This document shows positions 30,781 to 54,845 of a stretch of 64,000 nucleotides of DNA, in pieces. Source of the stretch: Verrucomicrobiia bacterium (GTDB taxonomy: Bacteria > Verrucomicrobiota > Verrucomicrobiia > JADLBR01); the NCBI GenBank assembly GCA_026646655.1, contig JAPKHT010000001.1, positions 73,775 to 137,774 of the forward strand, given 5' to 3'. The position numbers and the translations under genes are program-made. Under the pieces are notes generated by a model. That model was not told where the DNA came from. It did no database searches and was given only the letters and a program-made list of their open reading frames with translations. Numbering within the stretch: the first letter of the stretch is position 1; each line of letters begins with the position of its first letter.

Positions 30781-32700
30781 ATGAAACGGAAGTGGCCCAA
30801 TCTCATCAGCCTCATCGCGGTCGTTGCGCTCGCGGGTTGCGCGCGCGAAGCGGAAATGCACGTGGCGATTGATGGCGACGACGCCAACCCCGGCACGGCG
30901 AGGGCGCCGCTCCGCACGATCGGCCGCGCCGCGGAACGCGCGCGACCGGGGGACACCATCACGGTGCACGCGGGCGTTTACCGGGAGCGGGTCAATCCGC
31001 CGCGCGGCGGCACCTCCGACCGGGCGCGCATCGTCTACCGGGCGGCGCCGGGCGAAAAGGTCGAGATCCGGGGGTCCGAGGAGATCAAAGATTGGGCCAG
31101 GGTCAAAGGCGATGTCTGGAGCGTGACGATTCCCAACACGTTCTTTGGCAACTTCAATCCCTATGCCGACCTCATCCGCGGGGACTGGTTCAATCCGAAG
31201 GGCCGCGGGCATCACACCGGCGCCGTCTATCTCAACGGCGAGTGGCTGATCGAGGCGGCGACACTGGAGGATGTGCTGGCGGGCAAGCGGGGCGTGGCGA
31301 CATCGGGCCCCTTCGCTGTCCCCGAGGCCCCGCTGTGGTTCGGGCGGGTCGACGCCACGAACACGACGATCTGGGCGCAGTTCCCCGGAGCAGACCCCAA
31401 CCAACAGCTCGTGGAGATCAACGTGCGCCAGACGGTTTTCTATCCGGACAAGCCCGGCCGGAACTACATCACCGTCCGCGGCTTCACGATGCGGCACGCC
31501 GCGACCCCGTGGGCGCCGCCGACGGCCGAGCAGCCTGGCCTGATTGGCACGCACTGGAGCAAGGGATGGGTCATCGAAGACAACGTGGTCAGCCATTCGA
31601 TCTGTTCCGGCATCGCGCTGGGGAAACATGGCGACGAGTTCGACAACACCTCGGCCAATAGCGCCGAGGGCTACGTGAAGACCATCGAGCGCGCGCACGC
31701 GCATCCGATCGCGTGGACCAAAGACAACATCGGGGGCCATATCGTTCGCAACAACACGGTGTCCCATTGCGAGCAGGCCGGGATCGTCGGCAGCCTGGGG
31801 TGCTCCTTTAGCACCGTCACCGGCAACGTGATCCACGACATCCACGTCCGCCGCCTCTTCACCGGAGCGGAGATGGCCGGCATCAAGTTCCACGCCGCCA
31901 TCGACACCGAGATCAGCCGGAACCACATCTATCGCACGACGCGCGGCCTGTGGCTCGATTGGATGGCCCAGGGCACCCGCGTGACGCGGAACCTATTCCA
32001 CGACAACATCAGCGAGGACCTGTTCGTCGAGGTGAACCACGGGCCGTTCCTCGTGGATAACAATATATTCCTGTCCCCGACCACGCTGTTGGACATGTCC
32101 CAGGGAGGCGCCTACGCGCACAACCTGATCGCGGGAAAGATCGTGAGCGCGGAGGAGCCGGGTCGGGAGACGCCGTTTCACCCGGAGCATTCCACCCGCG
32201 TGGCGGGGCTGGCGAACATCAAGGGTGGCGACAACCGATTCTACAATAACATCTTTGTGGGCGACGGGAGCCCGGCGACTCCCCCCGCGCCGCCAAAGCA
32301 GGGCGAGCGCCACCGTCGCGTCGCGGGTTACGGGCTCTTCGTGTACGACGGGCGGGAGTTTCCGCTGATGACCGGGGGCAACGTCTATTATCGTGGCGCC
32401 CGGCCCTACGCCAAGGAGGATGCGCCCACCGCGGTCGGGGAATTCGATCCCCGGGTCCGCCTTGAGGGGCTGTCCCTCCAACTCACCCTAGATCCCGCCA
32501 TTCAGAAGGCCAAGGCGCAGACCGTCACCACCGAGCTGCTGGGCGCGGCGAAGATACCCGGCGCGGCCTACAAGAATCCCGATGGGTCTCCCGTCAGGAT
32601 CGATGGCGATTACTTCGGTAAGAATAGGGACGTCTCGCACCCCACGCCTGGACCCATCGAGCGCCCGGGCCTGGGTGAGGTCCAACTCAAGGTCTGGTGA
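30781..32700 (+). CDS. right-handed parallel beta-helix lipoprotein, putative polysaccharide lyase/hydrolase
   Basis: Lipoprotein signal MKRKWPNLISLIAVVALAGC; PbH1-type repeats (NNTVSHCEQAGIVGSL, GNVIHDIHV, RNHIYRTTRGLWLDW). Confidence 0.75.
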   Translation: MKRKWPNLISLIAVVALAGCAREAEMHVAIDGDDANPGTARAPLRTIGRAAERARPGDTITVHAGVYRERVNPPRGGTSDRARIVYRAAPGEKVEIRGSEEIKDWARVKGDVWSVTIPNTFFGNFNPYADLIRGDWFNPKGRGHHTGAVYLNGEWLIEAATLEDVLAGKRGVATSGPFAVPEAPLWFGRVDATNTTIWAQFPGADPNQQLVEINVRQTVFYPDKPGRNYITVRGFTMRHAATPWAPPTAEQPGLIGTHWSKGWVIEDNVVSHSICSGIALGKHGDEFDNTSANSAEGYVKTIERAHAHPIAWTKDNIGGHIVRNNTVSHCEQAGIVGSLGCSFSTVTGNVIHDIHVRRLFTGAEMAGIKFHAAIDTEISRNHIYRTTRGLWLDWMAQGTRVTRNLFHDNISEDLFVEVNHGPFLVDNNIFLSPTTLLDMSQGGAYAHNLIAGKIVSAEEPGRETPFHPEHSTRVAGLANIKGGDNRFYNNIFVGDGSPATPPAPPKQGERHRRVAGYGLFVYDGREFPLMTGGNVYYRGARPYAKEDAPTAVGEFDPRVRLEGLSLQLTLDPAIQKAKAQTVTTELLGAAKIPGAAYKNPDGSPVRIDGDYFGKNRDVSHPTPGPIERPGLGEVQLKVW

Positions 32701-32744
32701 GGCCGATAGCCGGCCGGAGGGGACTCCCGGAGACGGTGGCATGG

Positions 32745-32780
32745 GCCAAGCGCTCGCGCGTTCGGCTACGCGTTGCTGGC
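32745..32780 (-). repeat. degenerate inverted-orientation copy of the 3' hairpin module (CGTAGCCGAACGCGCGAGCGCTTGG)
   Basis: Plus strand reads ccaagcgctcgcgcgttcggctacgcgttgc, whose reverse complement is gcaacgcgtagccgaacgcgcgagcgcttgg. Confidence 0.3.
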
Positions 32781-32857
32781 AGGCGCTTCACCCTACGGCG
32801 CGGAGAGGCTTGGCGTTCTGGTGTCTCGGCCGTAACATGGTTCACGAGGATTCTGCC

Positions 32858-34291: not shown

Positions 34292-34319
34292 CCGTCGCCC
34301 ATTGACCCCCTGACCGCCC

Positions 34320-36050
34320 TTGGAGGACACCATGAGCATCCCGCGAAGAATCCCCGGTGCCCGGGCCGCACCGCGGCATGGGGTGGCACCTCTCGCGCTA
34401 TGCGCGCTGCTTGGGTGCTCGGGCGCGGCGCAGGCCCTCCATGTCTCGGAGTTCGGCGCGGCTCCCGACGATGGCAAGGACGACATGGCCGCCATCAGCC
34501 AGGCGATCCAGGCCGCGATTCAGCGGGGGGAACGCGAGGTGCTCTTCGATCCGGGGACCTACAACATGGCGACGGCGTGCGCCATCCCGGGAAAGAGCGC
34601 CGGCCACTACATCGGAATCTTTGGCGCGACCAACCTCGCCCTGATCGGCAGAGTGAATGGCGCCGGCGAGCCGGCCACCCGGCTCGAGCGAAACCACCCC
34701 CTCCACAACGACGCCCGACCATTTCACCACCTCGTTATCGAGCGATCGAGTCACATCACGATCAAGAATCTTGTGCTGGCCAACGATCCGCCGTTCGGTT
34801 CGACGGGCCGGGTCATATCCGTTGACAGGAATAGCGACGTGGTGGTGGTCGAGGTCCTGGAGGGGCTGCCCGCCTATGACGGGATGCGGTGCGCCTCGGC
34901 GCACGCCTGGGATCTTGCGACAGGAAAGCTGAAGCGCTTCGGCCCGACGCCGACCGAGGCAACGTTGACCATCGGCCTGAATATCACCCAGTTCTGGGAG
35001 GCGGTGCCCGGGACGGGGGCGCGGCGGTTGCGCATGGCGGGAAAGGGATTCGCCGCGAAAGTCGCCGCCGGCGACGGCATCTCGTGGCACCACGCGGCCC
35101 ACGAGTGCGACAACCAGACCGCGGTCATGTACTCACGGGATGTCACGTTCGAGAATGTCCGATTCCCCAACGTGACGAACATGGGGATGCTTGCGGGCTA
35201 TAACCGCAACCTGATCTTCCGCAGGGTCGCCTTTAGGCCCGAGAAGGGCAACCTCGCTGTCGGGGGCCGCGACGGCATGCACCTCAGCATGAATTCCGGC
35301 AGATTGCTGGTGGAAGACTGCTACTTCAAGGGGCTTCGGATGGACCCGTTGGTCATCCGCAAGACCTTTGGCCTGGTCAAAGATATCCGCGCGGACGGGG
35401 GCATCATCGCAAAGCCCGCCTACGAAATCCCGGCCGGTGACAAGATCCGGTTTTGGGTGGGGGAGGAGCCGCAGGACAGGACCGTGGCCAGCTGCAAGAG
35501 CCAGGGCGGGGGCGCCTACCTCTACACCTTCGAGCAGTCCAGTCCGCCCGGCGCCATCGTCGGCACGCCCCTTTGCTACCAGACCCACGCCCTCGAGGAG
35601 GGGATCATTCGCCGCTGTGTTTTCGAGGACAGCTTCGGCAGCCCCATCGTCAACTTCGAGGAGAACATAACCGTCGAGGGGTGCGTGTTCTCAAACAACT
35701 CGTACCAGATCAAGTATGGCCCGAACCAGACGACCGGCGCCTTCGTCCGGAACAATGTTTTCCGCAACAATGTCTGCGAGGATGTCCCGTGGGTCGATAT
35801 CGCGCACCGGGGCCAGCCATCCGCGATCGTGATCCACTCGCTGAACCGATATTTCAAGGCCCCGATGTTCAATGCCGGCATCCTGATCCGCGGCAATGTC
35901 TTCAAGAATCCGGGCGGCGATCCCGGGTGCGTGGCCATCGATGTGCGCAACGCCCGGGACGTCGAGATCCGCGACAACCAGTTCATCGGCTTCGAGAGGC
36001 GAGTCTGGATCGACGCGGCCACGACGCGCGACGTCCGGCTTGGGGAGTGA
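34320..36050 (+). CDS. pectate-lyase-fold (right-handed beta-helix) protein, GH28/pectate_lyase_3-like
   Basis: VSEFGAAPDDGKDDMAAISQAIQAA matches the pectate-lyase-superfamily N-terminal motif (DFGA.GDG..DDT.A.Q.A); repeated beta-helix rungs. Confidence 0.72.
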   Translation: MEDTMSIPRRIPGARAAPRHGVAPLALCALLGCSGAAQALHVSEFGAAPDDGKDDMAAISQAIQAAIQRGEREVLFDPGTYNMATACAIPGKSAGHYIGIFGATNLALIGRVNGAGEPATRLERNHPLHNDARPFHHLVIERSSHITIKNLVLANDPPFGSTGRVISVDRNSDVVVVEVLEGLPAYDGMRCASAHAWDLATGKLKRFGPTPTEATLTIGLNITQFWEAVPGTGARRLRMAGKGFAAKVAAGDGISWHHAAHECDNQTAVMYSRDVTFENVRFPNVTNMGMLAGYNRNLIFRRVAFRPEKGNLAVGGRDGMHLSMNSGRLLVEDCYFKGLRMDPLVIRKTFGLVKDIRADGGIIAKPAYEIPAGDKIRFWVGEEPQDRTVASCKSQGGGAYLYTFEQSSPPGAIVGTPLCYQTHALEEGIIRRCVFEDSFGSPIVNFEENITVEGCVFSNNSYQIKYGPNQTTGAFVRNNVFRNNVCEDVPWVDIAHRGQPSAIVIHSLNRYFKAPMFNAGILIRGNVFKNPGGDPGCVAIDVRNARDVEIRDNQFIGFERRVWIDAATTRDVRLGE

Positions 36051-36062
36051 TTGCCCGCGACG

Positions 36063-37547
36063 CTATGGAGCCGGGACTGGCAAGGCGGCCCTCCAGCCGG
36101 CCCGAAGGCGCCGGGCTACGTCTGTTGCGAGGGCGCGGTTCGGCTCCTCGGCGGCGACATTGACGCTCTCCGCGGGATCGGACTGATGGTCGTAAAGTTC
36201 AGTGCCGATGTTCCCGCCGTCGGGGTTGGTCCATTCGGTGTAGCGCCAGCGGTCGGTGCGGATGGAGCGACCCATGATGGCCGGCTTGCCCGGGCGCAGG
36301 TATTGGCTGAACGCGGCGGATTTCCATGGCCGGCCGGGGTTCTCGAATAGCGGCACGAGGCTCGTGCCCTCGAGATGCCCCGGGATCGGCAGCCCGCAGA
36401 GTTCCGCGAGCGTGGGATAGAGGTCCACCAGTTCAACGAGGGCGCGGGTACGGCCAGCGGGGGCCGGACGCGTGGGCGCGCTGACGATCAGGGGGACGCG
36501 GGTCCCGAATTCGAAGTTTGTCATCTTGGTCCACACGCCGTTCTCGCCGAGGTGGTAGCCGTGGTCGCCCCAGAGAGCGACGATGGTGTCGTTGGCAAGA
36601 CCGAGGCGGCCGAGCTCATCCAACACGCGCCCGATCTGCGCATCCACGAAACTGGTGCAGGCGCGGTAGCCGAGGATGAGGTTCAGCGCCATCTCGCGGG
36701 TGATGTCGCCCTCGGGCGGCACGGTGCCGTAGGAGCGCAGCTCGTACCCATCGTGAAACGCCGGCTCGGGCGCGCCCTTCGGTCGCCGCGTATCCGCCGG
36801 GAGGCGGACCGATTCCTCCGGGTAAAGATCCCAGTACTTCTTCGGGCACGTGAAGGGCAGGTGTGGCTTGACGAAACCGACGGCGAGGAAGAAGGGTTTC
36901 CCCTCGGCCTTGAGGCGCCCCAGGGTCTCGATGGCTTTCGTTGCGGTGAACCCGTCGGGATAAGCGTCGTCTGGCTGGTCCGCCGCCTCGAAGGGCGGTC
37001 CGCGCAATAGCTTGGGCCGTTGGCCCTCGGGCAAGCGCTTGAGCCGGGCGATGTATTCCTCCGACTCCTTTGTGAACCAGTGGCGGGCGCCCTCACCACG
37101 ATGCCAGGCCGGCTCGCTCCACGACCGCGGATCGTCCCCGGGCTCCCTCTCGCTATGGTGGAAGACCTTTCCGAGCGAGAGGCTGATGTAACCGTGGTCC
37201 TTGAAGTGCTGCGGCAGCGTCACCACGTCGGGCATGGCCGGTCGCAGGAAGTGGCGGTTGTCGAGAATGCCCGTCGTGTCTGGGCGGCATCCGCTCAGGA
37301 TGCTGTTGCGCGAGGGGTTGCACACCGCCACCTGACAGTAGGCGCGCTCGAATAGGATCCCTCGCGCGGACAACCTGTCGATGTGCGGGGATCGGATATG
37401 ACCGGCCCCGTAACAACCGAGTTCCGGGCGCAGGTCGTCCACGGCAACGAACAGGACGTTTGGTTTCCCGCCCGCCCCCATGGCGGCGCACAGCGACCCC
37501 AGGGCACAGGCAAATTGAACGAGATGTCGCATGAGAGGCCTCCCCAT
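36063..37547 (-). CDS. S1-family sulfatase (iduronate-2-sulfatase-like)
   Basis: NVLFVAVDDLRPELGCYG; formylglycine motif C-N-P-S-R; C-terminal ELYDHQSDPAE...NVA; the start may instead be the internal Met at 37532. Confidence 0.85.
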   Translation of the reverse strand: MGRPLMRHLVQFACALGSLCAAMGAGGKPNVLFVAVDDLRPELGCYGAGHIRSPHIDRLSARGILFERAYCQVAVCNPSRNSILSGCRPDTTGILDNRHFLRPAMPDVVTLPQHFKDHGYISLSLGKVFHHSEREPGDDPRSWSEPAWHRGEGARHWFTKESEEYIARLKRLPEGQRPKLLRGPPFEAADQPDDAYPDGFTATKAIETLGRLKAEGKPFFLAVGFVKPHLPFTCPKKYWDLYPEESVRLPADTRRPKGAPEPAFHDGYELRSYGTVPPEGDITREMALNLILGYRACTSFVDAQIGRVLDELGRLGLANDTIVALWGDHGYHLGENGVWTKMTNFEFGTRVPLIVSAPTRPAPAGRTRALVELVDLYPTLAELCGLPIPGHLEGTSLVPLFENPGRPWKSAAFSQYLRPGKPAIMGRSIRTDRWRYTEWTNPDGGNIGTELYDHQSDPAESVNVAAEEPNRALATDVARRLRAGWRAALPVPAP

Positions 37548-37692
37548 CTCCTACCGCATTCCGCCCGCACGCCCAACCGATTTCTTGTCGGGGCGGCGCG
37601 CGGCGCCGTCCTTGTGGGAGGGGCGCGATGGCGAAAAATGGGACTGCCAATCCTTTCTGGGGGAGGTATATCGGTGGCGCGGATCCGCCTCA

Positions 37693-39497
37693 TGAAACGC
37701 AACCTCCACGTCCTGGCCCATGTCGCGTGGCCACTCATCGCCGCCCTTTCTGCCTCGGCCGCGCCCAACGTCCTGCTCATCATCACCGACGATCAGGGCT
37801 ACGGAGATTTCTCCATCCACGGGAACCCTCATGTCCAGACGCCGCACATCGACGCGCTGGGTCGTTCCGGGGTGCGCTTCGAGCGTTTCTACGTGAACTC
37901 CTTCTGCGCGCCGACGCGCGCGGCCCTGCTCACGGGGCGCTGGCCGCTGCGCACGGGCTGCCATGGCGTCACGCACAACCGGGAGGCCATGCGGCCATCG
38001 GAGGTCACGATCGCGGAGGCGCTCAAGGGCGCGGGGTACCGCACGGCGTGCATCGGGAAGTGGCACAATGGCGAGCAGTATCCGTTCACCCCGCAGGGGC
38101 AGGGCTTCGACGAGTCGTTCGGCTTCAACAACGGTCACTGGAACAACTATTTCGACGCCACGCTGCTGCGCGGCGCGACGCCGGAAAAGACCAAGGGCTA
38201 CATCACCGATGTGCTCACCGACGAGGCGATCCGATTCATCGAGGGGAACAGGGGAGGGCCATTCTTCTGTTACCTTGCCTACAACGCGCCGCACTCGCCG
38301 TACCAGGTGCCGGACCGATATTTTGAGAAATTTAAGGCGAGGGGCCTGGAGGACAACGTGGCCGCGTTCTATGGGATGTGCGAGAACATCGACGACAACG
38401 TGGGACGTCTGCTGGCGAGCCTGGAATCGCGAGGCCACGCCGACGACACCATCGTGCTTTTCCTGACCGACAACGGCGGCACGGCGGGGGTGAAGATCTA
38501 CAACGCGGGCATGCGCGGCGGCAAGACCAGCGTGCACGAGGGTGGCAGCCGCGTTCCCCTCTTCATCCGCTGGCCCGCCGCGAAATGGCGGCCACACGTC
38601 GTGGCGCCCATCGCCTCCCACATCGATATCTATCCGACGTTGCTCGACCTCTGCGGCGTTTCGGCGCCACCCGGCCCCAGGGTGGACGGCGTCAGCCTGC
38701 GCCCCCTGCTGGAGAAGGAGGGCGCGGCCGGGTGGCCGGAGCGCGTCCTGTTCACGCACAACCCCATCGACGAGACGAACAAGTTTCCCGGGGCGGTGCG
38801 CACCGCGCGGCACCGTCTCGTGCGCGAGATCAAGGGTCCCGCCGGCGGTTCGAAGGCAAAGGCGAACGACGCGAGCGCAAGGCCCTGGCAGCTCTATGAC
38901 ATGGTGGAGGACCCCGGCCAGGAGAAGGACATCGCGGGCGAGCATCCCGAGGTCGTGGAACAGCTGGGCCGACTCTACGACGCGTGGTTTGCGGACATCT
39001 CGCGCGATGGCCTGCGGCGGTTCCCGTTACCCGTCGGGCACACCGAGCATAATCCCGTGGAACTGCACGCCCCGCAGGCATTCCACGACCCGCCGCTGCG
39101 CTTCGCCAACGGCCCCGGCTTCGCGAATGATTGGCTCACGGGCTGGACCGATGCCGGAGCCAAGGTCTGGTTCGATATCGATGTCGCCGCCTCGGGCGAG
39201 TATGAGGTGGAGCTGGCCATCGCCTGCCCACCCGCCGACGCGGGCTCCAAGATTCGTGTCACGATCGCCGGCCAGACGCTCGAGGCCACCGTCCCCGCGG
39301 CACCGGCGCCTGAGATTCCGCTGCCGCACCGCGATGCCGAGGGCAAGACACGCTACCGCGACCGCGAATGGGTGACGCTGAAACTCGGCGCGGTCAAGCT
39401 GCCGCAAGGCCCGGCCACGCTGACCGTGCAACCGCTCTCCATGCCCGGTGGGCAGGTGATGGACCTGAAGCACGTGCGGCTGAGCTTTAACCCATGA
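37693..39497 (+). CDS. S1-family sulfatase with ~150-aa C-terminal extension
   Basis: Signal peptide MKRNLHVLAHVAWPLIAALSASA; NVLLIITDDQGYGD; formylglycine motif C-A-P-T-R; TDNGG; LYDMVEDPGQEKDIA. Confidence 0.85.
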
Positions 39498-40837
39498 AGC
39501 GAGACTTCAGCCTGTTCGGCGCACTGTGGCTCATCGCGGTCGCCGGCCTGTGCGCCGGTGCGCCGGGGCCCGGGGCCGCCGGCGGATCCGGGCCATCGGT
39601 GGCGGCCTATGACTCCATCCAGGCCGCGCTCGATGCCAACCCGGGGCGGATGATCTTTGTGCCGGCCGGGGACTACCCGATCGCCGAGAAGATCCGCGTG
39701 CGCGGCGAGCGGTCTGGACTATTCGGCCCGGGGCGCATCATCCAGCAGAACGCGGACCAGCCGATCATCGAGATCGAGAATGCCGATGCCGCCGAGATCC
39801 GCGACCTCACGCTGACGCGGGCCGAGGGGAAGATGGAGACGGGCAACGAGGGCATCCTCGCCATCCAGTGCCGTGATATCGTGGTCGATGGCGTGCGCGT
39901 GATCGACAACCGGACGCGCTCGGCCGCGATCGCATTGCGCGAGTGCCGGGGGGCGCGCGTCAGCCGGTGCGTCGTGAGGAACTACATGCGCGTGAGCGTG
40001 GACGACCGGACCTCCAGTAAGGAATGGGGCTATGCGTTCAATTGCACCGATGGCACCGGGATCGGCCTGGATCGCTGCACCGGATCGCTCGTCGAGGGCA
40101 ACCGCATCATCGAGGAGAACTTCATCCCCACGCCGGAGATCAAGGCCAGGTACCGGCTCGGCGATTGGGTGAAGAAGAACCCGGAAAAGGGGACATTCCT
40201 CAGCCAGCGTGCCTGGGACGCCGCATATTCGGACAACTGGCAGCAGGGCTCGGCCATCATCGTCAACGCGCCGGACGCCAGCGATCTCACCCGCATCCTC
40301 GGGAACCACGTTGAGAACGCCGCCCAGGGCATGGACATCCACGCCGACCACGTCATCGTGGCGAACAACGTCATCGCGAATTCATTCATGGGCATGAAGG
40401 CGATGCACGGCTCGCGCAACGTGCTCATCATCGGCAACCAGTTTTCGAAGAACTGCCTGTGGGCCATCGGCCTGATGCCGGGTGCAGCGGCGCACCCCGG
40501 GGAAAAGGGCAAGCCGGAGACCGCGAACGCCGACGGCGGCTCGATCATCGCGAATAATATCATCTCCGACTTTGGCCATGGCGACGCGCACTGGATCTGG
40601 GGGATCGAGCGCTCGCCCTTCAAGTTCGACGAGGGCCAGCAATCCGACGATCCGCCGCTGGCCGATGTGATCGTGCAGGGCAACCTGGTCCACTGCGTTG
40701 GCGAACCGCGGTACAAGTACGCGGTCATGCTCTCGGCCGGGCCGAACGCGCCGCGCGGCATGCACTTCTCCGACAACCTGTTCGCCCCTGGCTCGGCGGG
40801 GGTTTCCAACCGGGAATTGCCGCAGCGCATCCCGTAG
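39494..40837 (+). CDS. right-handed beta-helix repeat protein, secreted
   Basis: Signal peptide; PbH1-like rungs (NNVIANSFMGMKAMHGSRNVLIIGNQF; ANNIISDF); ATGA overlap with the upstream sulfatase; its stop codon lies inside a copy of the 3' hairpin module. Confidence 0.75.
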   Translation: MKRDFSLFGALWLIAVAGLCAGAPGPGAAGGSGPSVAAYDSIQAALDANPGRMIFVPAGDYPIAEKIRVRGERSGLFGPGRIIQQNADQPIIEIENADAAEIRDLTLTRAEGKMETGNEGILAIQCRDIVVDGVRVIDNRTRSAAIALRECRGARVSRCVVRNYMRVSVDDRTSSKEWGYAFNCTDGTGIGLDRCTGSLVEGNRIIEENFIPTPEIKARYRLGDWVKKNPEKGTFLSQRAWDAAYSDNWQQGSAIIVNAPDASDLTRILGNHVENAAQGMDIHADHVIVANNVIANSFMGMKAMHGSRNVLIIGNQFSKNCLWAIGLMPGAAAHPGEKGKPETANADGGSIIANNIISDFGHGDAHWIWGIERSPFKFDEGQQSDDPPLADVIVQGNLVHCVGEPRYKYAVMLSAGPNAPRGMHFSDNLFAPGSAGVSNRELPQRIP

Positions 40838-40954: not shown

Positions 40955-42502
40955 ATGAAACGAGGCCTATTGTTCGCGGCCCTGCTGATCCCCGTGCTGG
41001 CAGCCGATGCCGCCGAGCTGAAACCCGCGGCCATATTCTCGGACCACATGGTGCTCCAGCGGGACAAGGTCGTCCCCGTGTGGGGGTGGGCCGACCCTGG
41101 CGAGGAGGTCACCATCGAGTTCGCCGGCCAGAAGAAGGTCGCCAAGGCCGACGCCCTTGGCCGATGGTCGGCGAGGCTCGATCCGATGCCCGCCAGCGCT
41201 GAAGGGCGGAAACTGATGATCCGAGGTTCGATCGGCGATCGCCAAACGGCCATCGAAGATGTCCTCGTGGGCGAGGTGTGGTTGGGCTCGGGGCAGTCGA
41301 ACATGGCGATGAGCGTGGGCCGGGCCCGAGATTTCGAATTGGAGAAGGCCGCGGCGGATCTGCCGCTGATCCGGATGTTCAAGGAAGAGTCCGCGGCGGC
41401 GAGGGCGCCGCAAGCCGACGGCAAGGGGCAGTGGGCGGTGTGCTCGCCAGACACGGTGGGCGGTTTCTCGGCAACGCTCTATTTCATGGGGCGGGAACTG
41501 CATCGCGCGCTGAAAGTGCCCGTGGGCCTGATCAATTCTTCGGTGGGTGGGACGCCGATCGAGCAGTGGGTGGCGGAAGAGGCGCAGGACGGGGTTGCGG
41601 AACTCAAGGCGGCGGGGCAGGCGCAGGCCAAGGCCGAGTCGGAGTTCGACGTCGCGAAGGCCAAGCAGGGTTACGAGAAGGCGGTGGTGCGCTGGAAAGA
41701 GCAGGCGGCGGCGGCGAAGGCGGCGGGCAAAGCGATCCCGCGGCGTCCCAGGGATCCGGTGGCCCAGCGCGAGCGCAAGGGGGGGCGCGGCGGGCTGTTC
41801 AACGGGAAGATCGCGCCACTGATCCCCTGCGCGATCCGCGGAGCGGTCTGGTATCAGGGCGAGGCGAATTCCCACCCGGGCAAGGGGCTATTGTATCGAT
41901 ATCAATTGCCGCTCCTGGTCACCGACTGGCGCGCCCGCTGGGGCGAGGAGTTTCCCTTCGCCTGGGTGCAGTTGCCCAATTTCGGGCGCGAGGGCGAGGA
42001 CTGGATGCTGGTGCGCGAGGCGATGCTCAAGACCCTGCGCCTGCCGAAGACCGGCATGGCCATCACCATTGACATCGGCGAGACCAAGGATATCCACCCA
42101 AAGAACAAACAGGATGTCGGGAAACGGCTCGCGCTGTGGGCGCTGGGGACGGTCTACGGGCAGAAGGTCCCTGCCACCAGCGGGCCGCTGCCCGCGGGCC
42201 ACGATCTGCGCGGTTCGGAGATCGCCGTCTCCTTCGCGCACTGCGATGGCGGCCTTCAGGCAAAGGGCGGGGAATTGAAAGGCTTCGACATAGCCGGCGA
42301 GGACCGTCGATGGAAGCCCGCGCGGGCCAAGATCGAGGGCGACAAAGTGATCGTGTCCTGCGCCGAGGTGCCCAGACCCGTCGCCGTCCGCTACGCGTGG
42401 GCCACCGACCCGGAATGCAATCTGTATAACGGCGCAGGCCTCCCCGCGTCGCCATTCCGGACCGACGATTGGCCCGCGGCCGAGGCGCCGGAGGCGAGGT
42501 AG
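40955..42502 (+). CDS. sialate O-acetylesterase-like (SASA/DUF303) carbohydrate esterase
   Basis: Signal peptide MKRGLLFAALLIPVLAADA; VWLGSGQSNMAMSV matches the SASA GQSNM motif. Confidence 0.8.
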   Translation: MKRGLLFAALLIPVLAADAAELKPAAIFSDHMVLQRDKVVPVWGWADPGEEVTIEFAGQKKVAKADALGRWSARLDPMPASAEGRKLMIRGSIGDRQTAIEDVLVGEVWLGSGQSNMAMSVGRARDFELEKAAADLPLIRMFKEESAAARAPQADGKGQWAVCSPDTVGGFSATLYFMGRELHRALKVPVGLINSSVGGTPIEQWVAEEAQDGVAELKAAGQAQAKAESEFDVAKAKQGYEKAVVRWKEQAAAAKAAGKAIPRRPRDPVAQRERKGGRGGLFNGKIAPLIPCAIRGAVWYQGEANSHPGKGLLYRYQLPLLVTDWRARWGEEFPFAWVQLPNFGREGEDWMLVREAMLKTLRLPKTGMAITIDIGETKDIHPKNKQDVGKRLALWALGTVYGQKVPATSGPLPAGHDLRGSEIAVSFAHCDGGLQAKGGELKGFDIAGEDRRWKPARAKIEGDKVIVSCAEVPRPVAVRYAWATDPECNLYNGAGLPASPFRTDDWPAAEAPEAR

Positions 42503-42544: not shown

Positions 42545-43627
42545 ATGAGGCCGCTTTCATCCATGGCGCTGCTCATCGGTTGCGCGCTTGCGGCGGTCGC
42601 GGCGCGCGCGGAGACGCCGCCTCCGGCGGCAGATGCCTCGGGGGGCCTGCAGCGCCCGCCCGACTCGATCCCGTCCGATGCGCCAGAGATATCGCCGCTC
42701 TCACCGGACGAGATTGGGGCGTGGCGCGAGCGCTGGCTGGCGTTTCTTTTTGGCGGCGAGTTGCCCCTGGAACGGCCGCCCCTGATTGTCCGAGAGGTGG
42801 GCCGCGACGAGCGCGGCGGCATCGAGCGAACCCACATTCGCTACGAGGTTGAACCGGGTGTGGAGACGGAGGCCTACATCCTGCGCCGCAGCGATGGCGC
42901 CGAAAGGCGCCCGGGCGTGGTCGTGTTTCACTCCACCTCCGCCGAGACCATCGGGCAGTCCGGTTCCCTCGATCCCGCCGAGGACCGTCACATCGGCGCG
43001 CACCTGGCCCTGCGCGGCTACGTCGTCATCGCGCCGAAATGCTACCTCTGGGGCGCCGCCGGTCAGGCCCCGCCCCCGAACCCGGGGCGCGCGTTCTGGG
43101 AGGGCGAGGTCGAGAAGATGCAAGGGCGCCACCCGCGGTGGAAGGGGATGGCCCGGATGGTCTGGGATGGCATCCGGGCTGTCGATGCCCTCGTCGCGCG
43201 GAATGACGTCGATGCGGCGCGCATCGGCTGCATCGGGCACTCGCTCGGCGCGAAGGAGTCGCTCTATCTGGCCGCCTTCGACCGGCGCGTGAAGGCGGCC
43301 GTGTCGAGCGATGGTGGCATCGGGCTCCGCCTTTCGAACTGGGAGGCGCCATGGTATCTCGGCGCCGAGATCCGCTCGCCGGAATTCTCTCTCGAGAACC
43401 ACCAGATCCTCGCGATGATCGCGCCGCGCGCATTCCTCCTGGTGGCCGGCAGGGATGACAACGAGCGCTCGTGGCCCTTCATCGCGGGCGCGCTGCCGTT
43501 ATGGAGATCGCTGGGCGCGGCCGATGCCGTTGGCTGGTTTCGGCATGGCGCCGGGCACAATTGGCCGCCGGAGGCGCAGGAGGCAGGGTATGCGTTTCTC
43601 GATCGTTTCCTGATGCGCCGACAATGA
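42545..43627 (+). CDS. alpha/beta-hydrolase (dienelactone-hydrolase/acetyl-esterase-like) putative carbohydrate esterase
   Basis: Signal peptide; nucleophile elbow GCIGHSLGAKESL (G-x-S-x-G); VVFHSTSA... Confidence 0.7.
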   Translation: MRPLSSMALLIGCALAAVAARAETPPPAADASGGLQRPPDSIPSDAPEISPLSPDEIGAWRERWLAFLFGGELPLERPPLIVREVGRDERGGIERTHIRYEVEPGVETEAYILRRSDGAERRPGVVVFHSTSAETIGQSGSLDPAEDRHIGAHLALRGYVVIAPKCYLWGAAGQAPPPNPGRAFWEGEVEKMQGRHPRWKGMARMVWDGIRAVDALVARNDVDAARIGCIGHSLGAKESLYLAAFDRRVKAAVSSDGGIGLRLSNWEAPWYLGAEIRSPEFSLENHQILAMIAPRAFLLVAGRDDNERSWPFIAGALPLWRSLGAADAVGWFRHGAGHNWPPEAQEAGYAFLDRFLMRRQ

Positions 43628-50670: not shown

Positions 50671-53106
50671 ATGGGCCGGGAGCCGGACTTTGGGCCCGCG
50701 GGGTGCAGCGCGCGGGCGGATGTGGCCATCACACGCCGCCACTCCGCGGGTGTCGCGGCGGCGACGGTGGCGCTGTGGCTGGTGCCCAACATGGCGCCCT
50801 GCGCGGCCGCATCGCAGCCGATGACGGACGTCTGCGCCGGAATGTACCGCGCCGCCGTGGAAAGGGCCATGGCGGAGACCGCCGCGCCGAAGAAGGCCCG
50901 CGCGAGCGACGAGATCAGCGGGGCACTCGCGGCTTGGATGGTGGCCGAGCGGACGAAGGAAGAGAAGTTTCGGGCTTTCGCGCTGGGGCGGTATGACGCG
51001 TTCCTCGGGTTGACGATCGATCACGATTTTCACGTCAGCCGACCCTTTGGCCTGCTGACGCTGAGGCTGCAGCGGGCGGGCGCGCTGGTGGGCGAGCGGC
51101 GGGCACGGGCGGTCGCGCAGGCCGGCGAGCGGATCGCGTGGTTCCTGGACAAGCGGCAGTTCGACGAGAAGCTCTTCGATTGCAACATCGCGCTGGCCGA
51201 TACCCTCGCGGTGTCCTGCCTTGCCCGGGCCTTTCCCGACGACCCATCGGTGCGCGCCGCGGAGATACGCGGGGCCGTGGCCGCGCTCGGGAAGCGCATC
51301 CTCGCGAATGGCGACCTCAATGAGAACGCCAGCAATTACGCCAGCCTGGGGATCTGCTTTTTCCTCGAACTGGCGAAACTGGAGGGCTGGCTGGACGAGG
51401 TCGGCAAGTCGCCGCATTTCCGGAACATGTTCGCGCGGATGCGCGACCTGATCTCGCCCGTCGGCTCGATCCCTGAATACGGGGATGGCTACTTCGAGCA
51501 TCGGCAGATCCGGCTGGATTTCGTGCTCTTGCTGGAGATGGCGGCGCGGCTCTACAACGATGCGTCGTTCCAAGAGGCGGTGCGGCGGCTCCCGGGCACC
51601 GCCCCGCAGGGGTTGGACGAGGATCAATTGCACCGCGGCTACATGCTCCTGGATCTCGATCCCTTTGCGCCCATGGCACGCTCCGAGCCGATGCTCTCCG
51701 GGGTACAGCACCGCCGCGTGCCGGGATCGCCCGCCACGGTCGTGCCGGACAAGCTGATCCTAAGGACGGGGTCGAGGCCCGGCGACGCGATGATCATGAT
51801 GGATCTCTACGCCCTGGGCAGCCACGCCCACGAATACAAGCGCCCGTCCATCGCGTACTATGAGGTGGCCGGCGTCCCTCTGTTCCACAACATCGGTCGC
51901 CGCGGCACCCGCTCGGGCCAGTGCGGCAATAGCTTCTGGATCCTTGATCGGCCCGAAGCCTTTCCCGGATATCCCAGGACCAACGCCTGGAACACCATGG
52001 CCGTGCCAGCCGATTATTGCTTCCCAGGCCAGGATCCAGGCTCGCGCAAGATTGGACCCTCCTTGCTCTTTCGGAATTTTCGCACGCCCGAGATCCAATT
52101 TCTTCGGCTCGACAACCTCCGGCTCGAGGGGCCAAAGGGCATCCTGCTGCTGGATGGCTTCGAGTCGCCCAAGAGCTGGCACTCGAACGTGTCCGGGCAC
52201 CCGAGGGTGAAACTGGCGTCCAGCCAGGACCACACGCAGGGGAAATGCTCGCAGGAGGTGAACTGGAATATCTTTGGCGAGCAGTACTGCACGCGCCTGC
52301 TGGAACAGGAGAAATTGCGCGACACGACCTTCCGGTTGGCTGATTACGATACTATCAAACTAGATTATAAATTTGACGGGCAGCCACCACATTGCAACCT
52401 CCGCTCCCTCTTCGAGCGGTGGATCGACCTCGGCGATCGGCCGCTGCATTGCGAGGTGGTCCGCGCGGAGGCCAAACAGGACGGGGCGGACGCGTGGGGC
52501 CGGGTTTCCTTCTCGGATTATATCAGGCCGGGCAACGCGCTGGAGCGGCAGATCGTCCTGACCCGCGAAGGGGCGTTGGTGGTGGTGGACACCTTCCGGG
52601 CCGGGCCGGGCGTCGCGGGCTGGGCGGGGGGGCAGCTCTGGCAGTTGTACTCGGTGAAAGAGCGCGGTGATGACTGGTTTGCCTCCGGGTCGGATGGCGC
52701 CTACGCACAACCCGATGGCTCGACCTCGGAGCGACGGATGCTGGTCAAGTTCATGAAGGCCCCGGGGCTGGCCATCGGCGCGGAGCGCGTCCGGCCCACG
52801 ACGATGCACGCGCCCAGGGCCGACGGCTCGAAAAACGAGGAGTTTTTCACGGCGCAATGCAGGGCAGCGCTGGTGCCCGGGCGGCGCATGGTCGCGGCCA
52901 TGGCCGTGCTGCCCTTGGCGGCCGACGACGATGCGGCGCGACAAGCGGCCCGCGTCACGTTCGAGGATCGGGCCGGCGGGGGCGTGACGGTGACCATCGC
53001 GTCGCCCGACGGAAAGGGGCAGGTCATCGTGGGCGCCGGTGGCCATGTGGTCGACATCCGCCGCCCCGAGCCGCCGCCGCACGCGCCAGCCGAGCAAGGC
53101 AGATGA
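50671..53106 (+). CDS. heparinase II/III-like polysaccharide lyase (alpha-toroid + beta-sandwich); start uncertain
   Basis: LYALGSHAHEYKRPSIAYYEVAGVPLF resembles the heparinase_II_III GHGHAD block; helical N-terminal half; alternative GTG start at 50724 gives a Tat-like leader ITRRHSAGVAAATVALWLV; the ORF-track start at 50506 lies inside the repeat element. Confidence 0.55.
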   Translation: MGREPDFGPAGCSARADVAITRRHSAGVAAATVALWLVPNMAPCAAASQPMTDVCAGMYRAAVERAMAETAAPKKARASDEISGALAAWMVAERTKEEKFRAFALGRYDAFLGLTIDHDFHVSRPFGLLTLRLQRAGALVGERRARAVAQAGERIAWFLDKRQFDEKLFDCNIALADTLAVSCLARAFPDDPSVRAAEIRGAVAALGKRILANGDLNENASNYASLGICFFLELAKLEGWLDEVGKSPHFRNMFARMRDLISPVGSIPEYGDGYFEHRQIRLDFVLLLEMAARLYNDASFQEAVRRLPGTAPQGLDEDQLHRGYMLLDLDPFAPMARSEPMLSGVQHRRVPGSPATVVPDKLILRTGSRPGDAMIMMDLYALGSHAHEYKRPSIAYYEVAGVPLFHNIGRRGTRSGQCGNSFWILDRPEAFPGYPRTNAWNTMAVPADYCFPGQDPGSRKIGPSLLFRNFRTPEIQFLRLDNLRLEGPKGILLLDGFESPKSWHSNVSGHPRVKLASSQDHTQGKCSQEVNWNIFGEQYCTRLLEQEKLRDTTFRLADYDTIKLDYKFDGQPPHCNLRSLFERWIDLGDRPLHCEVVRAEAKQDGADAWGRVSFSDYIRPGNALERQIVLTREGALVVVDTFRAGPGVAGWAGGQLWQLYSVKERGDDWFASGSDGAYAQPDGSTSERRMLVKFMKAPGLAIGAERVRPTTMHAPRADGSKNEEFFTAQCRAALVPGRRMVAAMAVLPLAADDDAARQAARVTFEDRAGGGVTVTIASPDGKGQVIVGAGGHVVDIRRPEPPPHAPAEQGR

Positions 53107-54845
53107 ATCCCTGGGTCCACCACCTCACGGTGACGCCCCTGCTGGTGGTCCCGCTGGTCGCAGGAGCGTTCAGTTTTGAGGATCCCGCCGGGCCGCAGTT
53201 CACCGAAGCGGAGAGGCGGCTCCAGCGCGCAAGGGGGACCGGGGTCGTTCCGATGGTGCGAAGGGCCTTTGAGGCGGGCGCCGATTCGGTGGTGATTCCG
53301 CCGGGGGATTACCGCTTCGGCAAAGAGAGCTGGGGCAACGCCGGGCCGATCTATCCTCTGGAGTTTCGCGGCATGAGGCGGGATGCGGCGCATCCTTTCC
53401 GCATCATCGCCGAAGGCGTGACATTCTGGTTTGATCTGCCCGCGGACCAGACGCCGCGGGCGCATTTCGCGCTCGGGTTCGCCGATAGCAGCCACGTCGC
53501 GCTGGAGGGCGCGACCCTCGACCGTGACCCGCGCGGCAACATGGAGGGGCGCATCACGCAGATCGATGATGTCGGCAACCGCATCGAGATCGAGGCCGCC
53601 GAAGGAACGCTCGTGCCGACCAGTTTCAACGGCGATCTGAATCAGCGCCTTGTGCCGTTCAATGCCGACGGCACCTTTTGCACCGCCCTGTATGGGCTGC
53701 AGCGGCGACCGGGCCAACTGAGGTATCGCGATGTCGCCCAGGGCACTGGGCCGGGGCGATACTGGGTGAACCTCGACGAGAAATCCGAGCTGCTGAAGAC
53801 GAATCGGGATCCGGGCTGGCGCCGGGCCTACGGCGAGGCGGGCACGCTGCAGGTCGGGGATGGGCTCTCCCTGGTCTACACGACAACCCAGGCGATCGGC
53901 GTCATCGATTGCACCGGCATGAGGTTCATCGGGATCAAGATCTACATTAGCAAGGGCATGGCGCGCGAGTTCGGCGGAGGGGGTGGTCACCTATGGAAGG
54001 GCTGCTATTTCGGACCACGCCCCGTCACCTGCCAGTGGCAGGGCGCTGACGGTTTTCTCTCGGGCTGCATGGAGAGGGGTTCCACTTATGATGGCATCAC
54101 GATGCTGCATACCACCGATGATGTCTTCAACATAAACGGCTTCTGGGGTTACATCGAGGAGGTGGCGGGGAAGACCATTACCCTGCATAGGGATCACCAA
54201 ATGCCCGCCCGCCCGGGCGATTGGCTAAACTTCTTCGATGGGCAGACCGGCCAACCGGTTGGCGTGGCCTCTGTCGACGGCATCGACGGCCAGGTCCTCA
54301 CCCTGGACCGTGACGCCGTGCCCTTTGCCGGTTCGATCGCCGAAAACCCGGGGCGCCAGTGCGACGGCTGGGTGATCCGTGACAGCGTCTTCACGGATTG
54401 CTACCAGCGACTGCTCGTCCAAGGGGGCAACGGCGGAGTCCTGCGCGATTGCAGATTTGTCCGCGTCGGATCCTGCGTCCGGCTCCACAGCACCTTTTTC
54501 TCCAAAAACGAGGGTGGCATCTGCCGCAACATCTCAATCCTCAACAACACCTTCGAGGATGTGGCGATCCACACTGATGGCGCGACCCTCACTGTGGGTT
54601 TTCAGCCCTTGAACCGCAAAGCCACCGCGCCCCTCCTGACAAATCTCGTCGTACGCGACAACACCTTCATCCATCCCGCGAAGCACGCCGTCGAATTCGA
54701 TCTCGTCGCCGGTGGCGAGATCTCGGGCAATACCTTCCACCGGGGCGGTCCCGAGCCCATCCGGCTCGCTAATTGTACCAACGTCATCGTGCGCGAAAAC
54801 CGGGCCATCCCTGGCCCCCCTGCGTCCGGGCCCGATTCCCCGTAA
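53102..54845 (+). CDS. right-handed beta-helix repeat protein, secreted
   Basis: ATGA overlap with the upstream lyase-like gene; signal peptide MNPWVHHLTVTPLLVVPLVAGA; PbH1-like rungs (NNTFEDVAIHTDGATL, RDNTFIHPAKHAVEF, GNTFHRGG). Confidence 0.75.

What the first reader, a model, noticed from the sequence alone, without database searches (positions are those of the whole stretch)
30781..54845. Four beta-helix proteins each partnered with a sulfatase or lyase: candidate novel sulfated-glycan enzymes
Four right-handed beta-helix proteins lie here (30781..32700, 34320..36050, 39494..40837, 53102..54845). Each is directly adjacent to a sulfatase or to the heparinase-like lyase, and they are partly translationally coupled (sulfatase 37693..39497 -> beta-helix with ATGA; lyase 50671..53106 -> beta-helix with ATGA). 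Beta-helix folds host GH28, GH82 iota-carrageenase, GH141 fucosidase, GH110 and many PL families. I cannot assign any of these four to a described family from sequence alone. Their pairing with sulfatases suggests coupled desulfation and backbone-cleavage modules.
Basis: inference. Interest (0 to 1): 0.55.

Follow-up and report, generated by a model that had tools for sequence, protein, structure and literature searches.

The report
Beta-helix glycan enzymes among sulfatases
Four exported beta-helix proteins sit in a sulfatase- and esterase-rich sugar-degradation island of a Verrucomicrobiae bacterium: one is an ordinary GH120 xylosidase-family enzyme, two are very distant relatives of GH110 alpha-galactosidases, and one belongs to an uncharacterised, highly conserved family, but their one-to-one pairing with sulfatases is not conserved elsewhere.

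Summary
The four beta-helix genes are real, and both ATGA overlaps are real. BH1 (30781-32700) is a clear GH120 member. It matches the XylC beta-xylosidase end to end (E=5e-162) and keeps both catalytic residues. BH2 (34332-36050) and BH4 (53103-54845) are remote relatives of each other and of GH110 alpha-galactosidases, detectable only with profiles. BH4 keeps the GH110 catalytic carboxylate triad. BH2 has an invariant Met in place of the general acid and keeps none of the galactose-binding residues. BH3 (39494-40837) is a distinct beta-helix family with no sequence link to any solved or named family. It is 63-92% identical across Verrucomicrobiota and Planctomycetota. The "heparinase-like lyase" has no detectable family at all. 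Pairing is not conserved at gene level. BH3 homologues have an adjacent sulfatase in 6 of 80 genomes. BH4 homologues have the "lyase" partner in 0 of 80 loci. BH2 homologues have a sulfatase within 8-10 kb in 2 of 5 loci. At locus level, BH2 and BH4 homologues recur together in another sulfatase-rich operon. The best reading is a set of exo-acting enzymes working in a sulfatase/esterase cascade, as already shown for GH110 in lambda-carrageenan. Interest is moderate.

The parts
28349..29755 (+). Sulfatase S3 (formylglycine-type S1 sulfatase)
   Evidence: Pfam Sulfatase E=1.7e-51
29756..30589 (-). AraC-family regulator, divergent from BH1 (191 bp gap)
   Evidence: Pfam HTH_18/AraC_binding; also called in L001
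30781..32700 (+). BH1: GH120-family beta-helix glycosidase with a lipoprotein-type signal (LAGC). Nucleophile D393 and acid/base E417 are conserved.
   Evidence: PDB 3vst XylC E=4.7e-162 over residues 25-639; Pfam Glyco_hydro_120_ins E=2.5e-31; catalytic residues per PMC3507262
32858..34291 (+). Sulfatase S4, 157 bp after BH1 and 40 bp before BH2
   Evidence: Pfam Sulfatase E=6e-42; 477-aa gene call in L001
34332..36050 (+). BH2: remote GH110-superfamily beta-helix protein with a lipobox-like LLGC. It keeps D314 and D338 but has invariant Met337 at the general-acid position.
   Evidence: Family profile A3 vs PDB GH110 7jwf E=3.3e-20; single sequence E=3.6e-5; invariant columns
36063..37547 (-). 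Sulfatase S5, convergent with BH2
   Evidence: Pfam Sulfatase E=1.2e-41
37674..39497 (+). Sulfatase S6 (607 aa, with an extra C-terminal domain). Its stop overlaps the BH3 start (ATGA).
   Evidence: Pfam Sulfatase E=9e-62; best PDB matches are S1_16/S1_19 carrageenan galactose-4-sulfatases, E=1e-64; overlap shown
39494..40837 (+). BH3: unclassified beta-helix family with a signal peptide. The invariant cluster is Q278, D281, D285, K302 and H305, with H283 nearly invariant (30/33).
   Evidence: Pfam Beta_helix/NosD only; no PDB sequence hit; AF2 model pLDDT 93; only generic beta-helix fold matches, TM<=0.64, 8-14% identity; conservation
40955..42502 (+). SASA-type acetylesterase, the most conserved neighbour of BH3
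   Evidence: Pfam SASA E=1.6e-16; present in 17/80 BH3 loci, next to the BH3 gene in most of them
42545..43627 (+). Alpha/beta hydrolase with resemblance to DLH and glucuronoyl esterase, 42 bp after the SASA gene
   Evidence: Pfam DLH E=3e-9, GCE_fung E=2.3e-7
50671..53106 (+). Its stop overlaps the BH4 start.
   Evidence: No Pfam (E<=10), NCBIfam, PDB or plasmid hit; NCBI 'hypothetical protein'; absent from 80 BH4-family loci
53103..54845 (+). BH4: remote GH110-superfamily beta-helix protein that keeps the GH110 catalytic triad (D316, D339, D340) plus the N348, R453 and E488 equivalents
   Evidence: Family profile A1 vs PDB GH110 7jw4 E=9.4e-11; hhalign BH4 vs BH2 families prob 99.2%, E=6e-20; invariant columns
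54972..55985 (+). Esterase (Pfam 'Putative esterase') downstream of BH4
   Evidence: Pfam Esterase E=1.3e-23
55916..57526 (+). Sulfatase S7
   Evidence: Pfam Sulfatase E=1.7e-35

Best explanation
The region is the core of a roughly 60-kb glycan-utilisation island in an uncultured Verrucomicrobiae bacterium. The likely substrate is a sulfated, O-acetylated heteropolysaccharide containing fucose, xylose and galactose, probably with uronic acid, such as a microalgal or cyanobacterial exopolymer. The four beta-helix proteins are exported enzymes from three unrelated lineages. BH1 is a retaining GH120 beta-xylosidase-type exo-glycosidase whose +1 subsite differs from XylC. It probably removes beta-xylose side residues from something other than xylan. 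BH4 is a remote GH110-like enzyme with an intact Asp/Asp/Asp-type inverting machinery. It probably removes a terminal alpha-linked hexose. BH2 is a second remote GH110-like protein whose general acid and sugar-binding residues have all changed, so its chemistry or specificity differs. BH3 is an unclassified beta-helix enzyme with an invariant Asp/His/Asp plus Lys/His cluster on adjacent coils. The inferred working model is the sequential cascade known from other sulfated-glycan systems. Esterases and exo-sulfatases strip the non-reducing-end residue, and a glycosidase then removes it. The translational coupling seen here (S6-BH3 and orphan-BH4) is a local operon arrangement in this lineage and is not a conserved two-protein module. 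Shown: family relationships, catalytic-residue status, gene overlaps and neighbourhood statistics. Inferred: substrates, exo mode and order of action.
For: Island content: 8 sulfatases, 3 GH29, 2 GH43, GH16, GH36, 2 BNR-repeat (sialidase-like) proteins, at least 6 esterases or deacetylases and an AraC regulator. BH1 = GH120: E=4.7e-162 to XylC. D382 and E405 equivalents are kept (D393, E417). Seven of 8 -1 subsite residues are kept, with Q289->T and the +1 stacking residue H352->A. BH2 and BH4 relate to GH110: profile E=3e-20 and 9e-11, and they relate to each other at 99.2% probability. The GH110 catalytic residues are D344 (acid) and D321/D345 (bases). BH4 has D316 (Glu in most family members), invariant D339 and D340, nearly invariant N343 (=N348), and invariant R436 (=R453) and E470 (=E488). 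A published precedent shows that GH110A and GH110B need prior S1_8 and S1_15 sulfatase action on lambda-carrageenan oligosaccharides. Locus-level recurrence: in an 81.8-kb metagenome contig the BH2 homologue (59% identity) and BH4 homologue (63%) lie in one same-strand cluster with 5 sulfatases, GH88, GH28, GH43, GH2, SASA and BNR. In a 77%-identical BH2 relative the locus again holds a sulfatase, GH120, SASA and LamG. Closer BH4 relatives sit among sulfatases, GH95, GH127, SASA and SGNH esterases. Verrucomicrobial BH3 loci carry 1.4 sulfatases per 10 kb (40/61 loci) and often have a SASA esterase next to the BH3 gene. All four proteins have N-terminal signal or lipoprotein-like sequences.
Against: No biochemical data exist for any of these proteins or for close homologues. 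The GH110 relationship is only visible with profiles, and none of 75 family members hits Pfam's GH110 barrel-domain models. BH2 lacks the general acid and all 7 galactose-binding residues, so it may not be a hydrolase. Three of 5 BH2-homologue loci and all but 2 of 19 planctomycete BH3 loci lack sulfatases entirely, so these families are not restricted to sulfated substrates. I could not run dbCAN, so assignment to a CAZy family that has no solved structure cannot be excluded. Signal peptides were judged by eye.
Confidence: 0.6

Rival explanations
1. One reading: each beta-helix protein forms a dedicated functional module with its adjacent sulfatase or lyase, so desulfation and backbone cleavage are coupled pairwise, and the proteins represent novel families.
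For: Two genuine 4-bp ATGA overlaps. A 607-aa sulfatase lies upstream of the BH3 homologue in Prosthecobacter vanneervenii, and a sulfatase lies directly on each side of it in a Limisphaerales MAG. GH110 enzymes depend on particular sulfatases.
Against: The pairing is not conserved. BH3 homologues have an adjacent sulfatase in 6/80 genomes, an S6-type C-terminal domain appears in only 2/80, and the 92%-identical relative L010 has no sulfatase within 6 kb upstream. The 'lyase' is found in 0/80 BH4 loci, 42 of which have room for it upstream. BH2 homologues have no sulfatase in 3/5 loci. Sulfatases are so dense here that adjacency is expected. The characterised GH120 and GH110 enzymes cited here (XylC, PdGH110A/B) are exo-acting.
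Confidence: 0.12
2. BH3 and/or BH2 are not glycoside hydrolases. They would be beta-eliminating polysaccharide lyases (or epimerases) acting on uronic-acid residues of the glycan.
For: BH3's invariant D281-x-H283 matches the spacing of the AlgE epimerase catalytic residues Asp152 and His154, and invariant K302 and H305 lie one coil later. Its top fold matches include the AlgE6 epimerase (E=5e-8), the RbmB polysaccharide lyase (TM 0.64), PL6 lyases and the fucoidan lyase FdlA. BH3 is followed by an acetylesterase and by a hydrolase that resembles glucuronoyl esterases. BH2 has Met at the general-acid position next to an invariant Arg336. A BH2 homologue overlaps the end of a GH88 unsaturated-uronyl hydrolase gene, which implies a lyase in that locus.
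Against: The fold matches are generic for beta-helices (TM 0.4-0.64, 8-14% identity) and include as many hydrolases (GH87, GH110, tailspikes). BH3 has Gln where AlgE has the catalytic Tyr149, and no clear Asp178 equivalent. No GH88, GH105 or other lyase-product-processing gene was found among the window genes scanned. The motif comparison was made by eye and not by structural superposition.
Confidence: 0.25
3. BH2 is a catalytically dead, enzyme-derived surface glycan-binding lipoprotein.
For: It has a lipobox-like LLGC signal. It has lost the GH110 general acid and all 7 -1 subsite residues.
Against: The segment R336-M337-D338-P339-L340 and the D314/H317 motif are invariant across 34 members that are 48-77% identical to BH2, which suggests a functional site retained at the old catalytic centre. 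Both putative base Asp residues are kept.
Confidence: 0.12
4. The four are ordinary pectin-active enzymes (GH28 or PL1/3/9) with no link to sulfated substrates.
For: Weak Pfam Pect-lyase_RHGA_epim hits cover the N-terminal cap of BH2 (residues 38-82). GH28 genes neighbour BH2 homologues in two other loci.
Against: No GH28, PL1, PL3 or PL9 match reaches significance for any of the four. The NCBIfam rhamnogalacturonidase model scores 15.7 bits against a cutoff of 500, and PelN scores 24 against 740. The PDB profile hits to pectin enzymes cover only the roughly 50-residue cap. No pectin-family gene turned up among the window genes scanned, whereas 8 sulfatases did.
Confidence: 0.03

Closest known systems
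GH120 beta-xylosidase XylC of Thermoanaerobacterium saccharolyticum (PDB 3VST/3VSU)
   Same: BH1 aligns end to end (E=4.7e-162). It has the GH120 beta-sandwich insertion domain, the nucleophile Asp and acid/base Glu, and 7 of 8 -1 subsite residues.
   Different: BH1 has a lipoprotein-type signal. XylC's alignment starts at its residue 2, which matches BH1 residue 25. In BH1 Q289 is replaced by Thr and the +1 stacking residue H352 by Ala. BH1 lies between an AraC regulator and sulfatases and not in a xylan locus. Its aglycone is therefore probably not xylo-oligosaccharide (inference).
GH110 exo-alpha-galactosidases PdGH110A and PdGH110B of the Pseudoalteromonas distincta lambda-carrageenan cascade (PDB 7JW4, 7JWF, 9BEH)
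   Same: BH2 and BH4 family profiles match them (E=3e-20 and 9e-11) along the beta-helix and the region of the inserted barrel domain. BH4 keeps the acid and two-base carboxylate triad with identical 23/24-residue spacing. The genomic setting among sulfatases is also shared, and GH110A and GH110B act only after specific desulfation.
   Different: Similarity is invisible or marginal for single sequences (BH4 no hit, BH2 E=3.6e-5). Pfam's GH110 barrel models do not hit any family member. BH4 keeps only 3 of 7 galactose-binding residues. BH2 keeps none and has Met at the general-acid position. The hosts are Verrucomicrobiae whose relatives come largely from lake and other non-marine metagenomes, and are not marine carrageenan degraders.
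AlgE mannuronan C-5 epimerases, RbmB VPS lyase and GH87 alpha-1,3-glucanases (structural neighbours of BH3)
   Same: All share the right-handed parallel beta-helix fold. They are the best Foldseek matches to the confident BH3 model, at E=5e-8 to 4e-7. BH3 has a D-x-H motif spaced as in the AlgE catalytic residues Asp152 and His154.
   Different: Sequence identity is 11-13% and TM is at most 0.64. There is no sequence-level relationship. Equivalents of the AlgE Tyr149 and the GH87 Asp triad are absent. BH3 forms its own narrow family, with 332 hits among 1.84 billion cluster representatives.

Membership tests
GH120 (BH1) | Full-length sequence similarity to characterised GH120 members | tested here: met
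   phmmer vs PDB: 3vst XylC E=4.7e-162, query 25-639 vs chain 2-638
GH120 (BH1) | Beta-sandwich insertion domain within the beta-helix | tested here: met
   Pfam PF21258 Glyco_hydro_120_ins E=2.5e-31, 109 bits vs cutoff 27
GH120 (BH1) | Catalytic nucleophile Asp382 and acid/base Glu405 (XylC numbering) | tested here: met
   Aligned to D393 (WLDW) and E417 (FVEV) of BH1; residues defined in PMC3507262
GH120 (BH1) | Beta-xylosidase activity | not testable with these tools
   Needs an enzyme assay. The -1 subsite is 7/8 conserved, but the +1 residue H352 is Ala.
GH110 (BH4) | Significant sequence similarity to GH110 members | tested here: inconclusive
   The single sequence gives no PDB hit. The family profile gives E=9.4e-11 to 7jw4 over profile positions 285-600. 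dbCAN/CAZy HMMs were not available.
GH110 (BH4) | Catalytic triad: general acid Asp344 and bases Asp321/Asp345 | tested here: met
   D339 and D340 are invariant, and there is an acidic residue (D316; Glu in most family members) 23 residues upstream, as in GH110
GH110 (BH4) | Galactose-binding -1 subsite (N85, R265, N348, R453, E480, W486, E488) | tested here: not met
   Only the N348, R453 and E488 equivalents are conserved. E480 and W486 are replaced. N85 and R265 lie outside the aligned region.
GH110 (BH2) | Significant sequence similarity to GH110 members | tested here: met
   Single sequence E=3.6e-5. Family profile E=3.3e-20 to 7jwf in two stretches, the N-terminal cap and 232-518. This shows remote homology, which is not the same as CAZy assignment.
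GH110 (BH2) | General acid Asp344 | tested here: not met
   It aligns to Met337, which is invariant in 34 family members. D314 (=D321) and D338 (=D345) are kept with correct spacing.
GH110 (BH2 and BH4) | Two small beta-barrel domains flanking the helix (Pfam Beta-barrel_GLAA-B_I/II) | tested here: not met
   None of 34 BH2-family and 41 BH4-family members hits PF23763 or PF23764 at E<=0.01. The PDB alignments run through the domain II region, so diverged barrels may exist. No structure model was made for either protein.
GH141, GH82 and GH28/pectate lyases (all four) | Sequence similarity beyond the generic N-terminal cap | tested here: not met
   No PDB hit to any chain named as a GH141 enzyme. 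Iota-carrageenase 1h80 scores E=0.04 on residues 26-70 only. GH28 and pectate lyase hits are restricted to about 50 cap residues. The NCBIfam pectin models score far below their cutoffs.
NosD (BH3, as some databases name its homologues) | Score above the family cutoff, and a nosFY/nosZ genomic context | tested here: not met
   TIGR04247 scores 37.8 bits vs cutoff 300. The neighbours identified or recurring in the loci examined are sulfatases, esterases and a helicase, and no nos genes were seen.
Heparinase II/III-like lyases (partner of BH4, 50671-53106) | Match to Hepar_II_III or related PL family models or structures | tested here: not met
   No Pfam hit at E<=10, no NCBIfam hit and no PDB hit. 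The fold was not predicted, so a remote structural relationship remains untested.

The most novel reading that the evidence does not exclude
BH3 would be the founding member of an undescribed carbohydrate-active enzyme family, most plausibly a polysaccharide lyase or unusual hydrolase using the invariant Q278/D281/H283/D285/K302/H305 cluster. The family is shared at 63-92% identity between Verrucomicrobiota and Planctomycetota and works with SASA-type acetylesterases. BH2 would be a GH110-derived enzyme that has swapped its general acid for a different catalytic solution.
Probability: 0.3. Interest if true: 0.55.

Novelty: new variant of a known kind. Interest (0 to 1): 0.36.

Why it matters
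Bacteria of the Planctomycetes-Verrucomicrobia-Chlamydiae (PVC) group are major degraders of recalcitrant sulfated algal and microbial glycans. Many genes in their degradation loci are unannotated 'beta-helix repeat proteins'. This analysis sorts four of them into three groups: an ordinary GH120, two deep GH110-like branches, and one truly unassigned but widespread and highly conserved family. That tells experimentalists which ones are worth expressing, namely BH3 first and then BH2. It also shows that gene adjacency in sulfatase-dense islands should not be read as dedicated enzyme pairs. If BH3 or BH2 has new chemistry, it would add a CAZy family or mechanism relevant to carbon turnover in lakes and soils.

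Tried and rejected
1. The first AF2 model of BH3, built from a shallow alignment of 70-88% identical sequences, was poor (pLDDT 61) and its fold search was uninformative. I replaced it with a model from a diverse alignment (pLDDT 93).
3. Sequence and profile searches of BH3 against PDB gave nothing beyond generic repeats.
4. hhalign of the BH3 family against the BH2 and BH4 families showed only the N-terminal cap (72% probability) or nothing. BH3 is therefore not a truncated GH110-like protein.
5. tblastn of the orphan 'lyase' and of BH4 against 72,556 plasmids gave no match.
6. Literature searches found no described family for BH2, BH3 or BH4 and no GH110 or GH120 link in fucoidan-degrader papers.
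7. A search for conserved neighbours of BH3 in 19 planctomycete loci found nothing consistent: DUF1501 in 5, aldo-keto reductase in 4.
8. The pectin, NosD, GH141 and GH82 assignments were rejected for the reasons given in the membership test.


Full report
**Observation**

The window has about 65% G+C and is packed with carbohydrate-active genes. In the stated interval the four ORFs are present and each matches Pfam Beta_helix.
- BH1 is 30781-32700.
- BH2 is 34320/34332-36050. Independent gene calls on a matching metagenome contig use the ATG at 34332.
- BH3 is 39494-40837.
The sulfatase ATG is at 37692 and not 37693.

Both ATGA stop/start overlaps are real: sulfatase S6/BH3 and the 811-aa protein/BH4. 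The gene order is S3, AraC (minus strand), BH1, S4, BH2, S5 (minus strand), S6, BH3, SASA esterase, alpha/beta hydrolase, and further on polysaccharide deacetylase, the 811-aa protein, BH4, esterase, S7. Exactly matching proteins occur in NCBI MAGs named 'Verrucomicrobiae bacterium' and in several Logan assemblies with the same gene order.

**Wider context**

The whole 64 kb is a degradation island. It holds:
- eight S1-type sulfatases;
- three GH29 fucosidases, two GH43 domains, GH16 and GH36;
- two BNR/sialidase-like proteins, a GH99/WbsX-like protein and a large LamG protein;
- at least six esterases or deacetylases, and an AraC regulator.

In the 28-40 kb stretch five of nine genes are sulfatases. 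A gene placed there is therefore almost bound to touch a sulfatase.

**BH1**

BH1 is not unassignable.
- It aligns over its whole mature length with the GH120 beta-xylosidase XylC (E=4.7e-162).
- It carries the GH120 insertion domain (Pfam E=2.5e-31).
- XylC's proposed nucleophile Asp382 and acid/base Glu405 (PMC3507262) correspond to D393 and E417 of BH1.
- Of the eight residues that bind the -1 xylose, seven are identical and Q289 is Thr.
- The +1 stacking residue His352 is Ala.

BH1 also has a lipoprotein-type signal (LAGC). I read it as a GH120 exo-beta-xylosidase that acts on a non-xylan aglycone. That last step is inference.

**BH2 and BH4**

As single sequences they give marginal or no PDB matches. 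Alignments of their homologues give clear profile matches to GH110 alpha-galactosidase structures. These alignments hold 34 and 41 sequences, 43-77% identical to the query. The matches are E=3.3e-20 for BH2 and E=9.4e-11 for BH4. The two families also match each other (hhalign 99.2%, E=6e-20).

In PdGH110B the general acid is Asp344 and the bases are Asp321 and Asp345 (PMC7939477).
- **BH4.** It has invariant D339-D340 and an acidic residue exactly 23 residues upstream (D316). It also has equivalents of N348, R453 and E488, but not of E480 or W486. An inverting glycosidase with a different sugar specificity is the most likely reading.
- **BH2.** It keeps D314 and D338 with the right spacing. 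It has an invariant Met at the general-acid position and none of the seven galactose-binding residues. Its activity cannot be inferred from GH110.

None of the 75 family members hits Pfam's GH110 barrel-domain models. I therefore call these deep GH110-superfamily branches and do not call them GH110 members.

**BH3**

BH3 has only generic Beta_helix/NosD repeat matches and no PDB sequence relative, even with profiles.
- Its family is narrow: 332 hits among 1.84 billion cluster representatives.
- It is strikingly conserved, at 63-92% identity in 80 genomes spanning Verrucomicrobiota and Planctomycetota, out of 212 species detected.
- A model built from a diverse alignment is confident (pLDDT 93, pTM 0.89).
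- The model's best structural neighbours are only generic beta-helix enzymes at 8-14% identity: AlgE6 epimerase, GH87, RbmB lyase, PL6, GH110 and tailspikes.
- Across 33 diverse members the residues Q278, D281, D285, K302 and H305 are invariant and H283 is nearly so (30/33). They are spaced one coil apart. That pattern fits an active-site cleft.
- The D-x-H spacing matches AlgE's Asp152/His154, but the catalytic Tyr is absent.
- BH3 is unrelated to BH2 and BH4 beyond the N-terminal cap.
- Database labels of 'NosD' for its homologues are not supported (37.8 bits vs cutoff 300).

**Is the pairing meaningful?**

I tested it at family level.
- **BH3, 80 genomes.** A sulfatase lies within 6 kb in 42 and directly adjacent in 6. 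Density is 1.4 per 10 kb in verrucomicrobial loci and 0.1 in planctomycete loci. The 92%-identical relative L010 has no sulfatase upstream. The more conserved neighbour is a SASA acetylesterase, present in 17/80 loci and next to the BH3 gene in most of them, as in the window.
- **BH4, 80 metagenome loci.** The 811-aa partner is never present, although 42 loci have room for it. Sulfatases occur in 11 of 57 loci with enough flank.
- **BH2, five homologue loci.** Two contain sulfatases and three are in unrelated contexts.

The locus-level association does recur. One 81.8-kb contig carries the BH2 and BH4 homologues in a single same-strand cluster with five sulfatases, GH88, GH28, GH43, GH2, SASA, BNR and two more beta-helix proteins. 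A 77% BH2 relative sits with a sulfatase, GH120, SASA and LamG. The 65-68% BH4 relatives sit among sulfatases, GH95, GH127 and esterases.

So these families belong to a shared toolkit for sulfated, acetylated acidic heteroglycans, but not to fixed two-gene modules.

**The partner of BH4**

The 811-aa protein has no Pfam hit (even at E<=10), no NCBIfam, PDB or plasmid match, and is annotated as hypothetical. The 'heparinase-like lyase' label is therefore unverified.

**Mechanism proposed**

Esterases and exo-sulfatases prepare the non-reducing end, and the beta-helix exo-glycosidases then remove the exposed residue. S6 most resembles S1_16/S1_19 galactose-4-sulfatases. This is exactly the logic demonstrated for GH110A and GH110B with S1_8 and S1_15 sulfatases in lambda-carrageenan (PMC12549532). 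The concept is therefore known. What is new is the set of divergent enzymes. A lyase or epimerase role for BH3, and perhaps BH2, is a live alternative. It rests on the motif, the structural neighbours, the nearby glucuronoyl-esterase-like gene, and the GH88 coupling of a BH2 homologue.

**Verdict**

- One protein is an ordinary member of a known family.
- Two are remote variants of a known family, one of them with an altered catalytic centre.
- One is an uncharacterised but widespread family.
- The proposed pairwise coupling is not conserved.
- Interest is moderate and comes mainly from BH3 and BH2.

Noticed in passing
window 39494-40837; loci L010-L089: BH3 homologues are 63-92% identical across two phyla (Verrucomicrobiota and Planctomycetota). 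That is unusually high for an exported beta-helix protein. It suggests either very strong constraint or recent horizontal spread within the PVC group.
   Followed up: partly
window 40955-42502; L010, L012, L013 and 14 other loci: A SASA-type acetylesterase is the most conserved neighbour of BH3. It occurs in 17/80 loci, usually directly upstream on the same strand and directly downstream in the window and in L010. That is more often than any sulfatase is adjacent.
   Followed up: partly
window 50671-53106: This is an orphan 811-aa protein with no family, structure or plasmid match. It sits in a 3-member cluster and is translationally coupled to BH4. Its N-terminal half looks helix-rich and its C-terminal half strand-rich by eye, but the fold was not predicted.
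   Followed up: partly
L004 9341-9796 (Prosthecobacter vanneervenii JACHIG010000010.1): An IS200-type Y1 transposase gene sits between a 607-aa sulfatase and the BH3 homologue. This may be a once-adjacent pair that an insertion has split.
   Followed up: no
window 24962-26110; L170 14691-15755; L171 5138-6202: A GH99/WbsX-like protein of about 354-382 aa recurs two genes away from a 68%-identical BH4 homologue. It may belong to the same pathway.
   Followed up: no
window 48300-49133 and 49130-50497: A 277-aa predicted membrane protein with no family match overlaps by 4 bp the start of a polysaccharide deacetylase gene.
   Followed up: no
window 54972-55985 / 55916-57526: The esterase and sulfatase S7 ORFs overlap by 70 bp as listed. 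The S7 start is probably a later ATG (around residue 23, MMRYL...).
   Followed up: no
window 6957-8780: A single ORF combines GH16 and GH43 domains. It is an apparent two-domain fusion enzyme.
   Followed up: no
metagenome contig of 81.8 kb (ERZ1426830): One same-strand cluster holds five beta-helix genes: a BH2 homologue, a BH4 homologue, a GH28 and two others of 664 and 642 aa. It also holds GH88, GH95-like, GH43, GH2, SASA and BNR genes and five sulfatases. The BH2 homologue's start overlaps the end of the GH88 gene.
   Followed up: partly
homologues P0011, P0013, P0014, P0048, P0105: JGI and NCBI annotate BH3 homologues as 'nitrous oxidase accessory protein NosD'. The NosD model scores 37.8 bits against a cutoff of 300, and no nos genes were seen in the neighbourhoods examined. 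These labels look like misannotations.
   Followed up: yes
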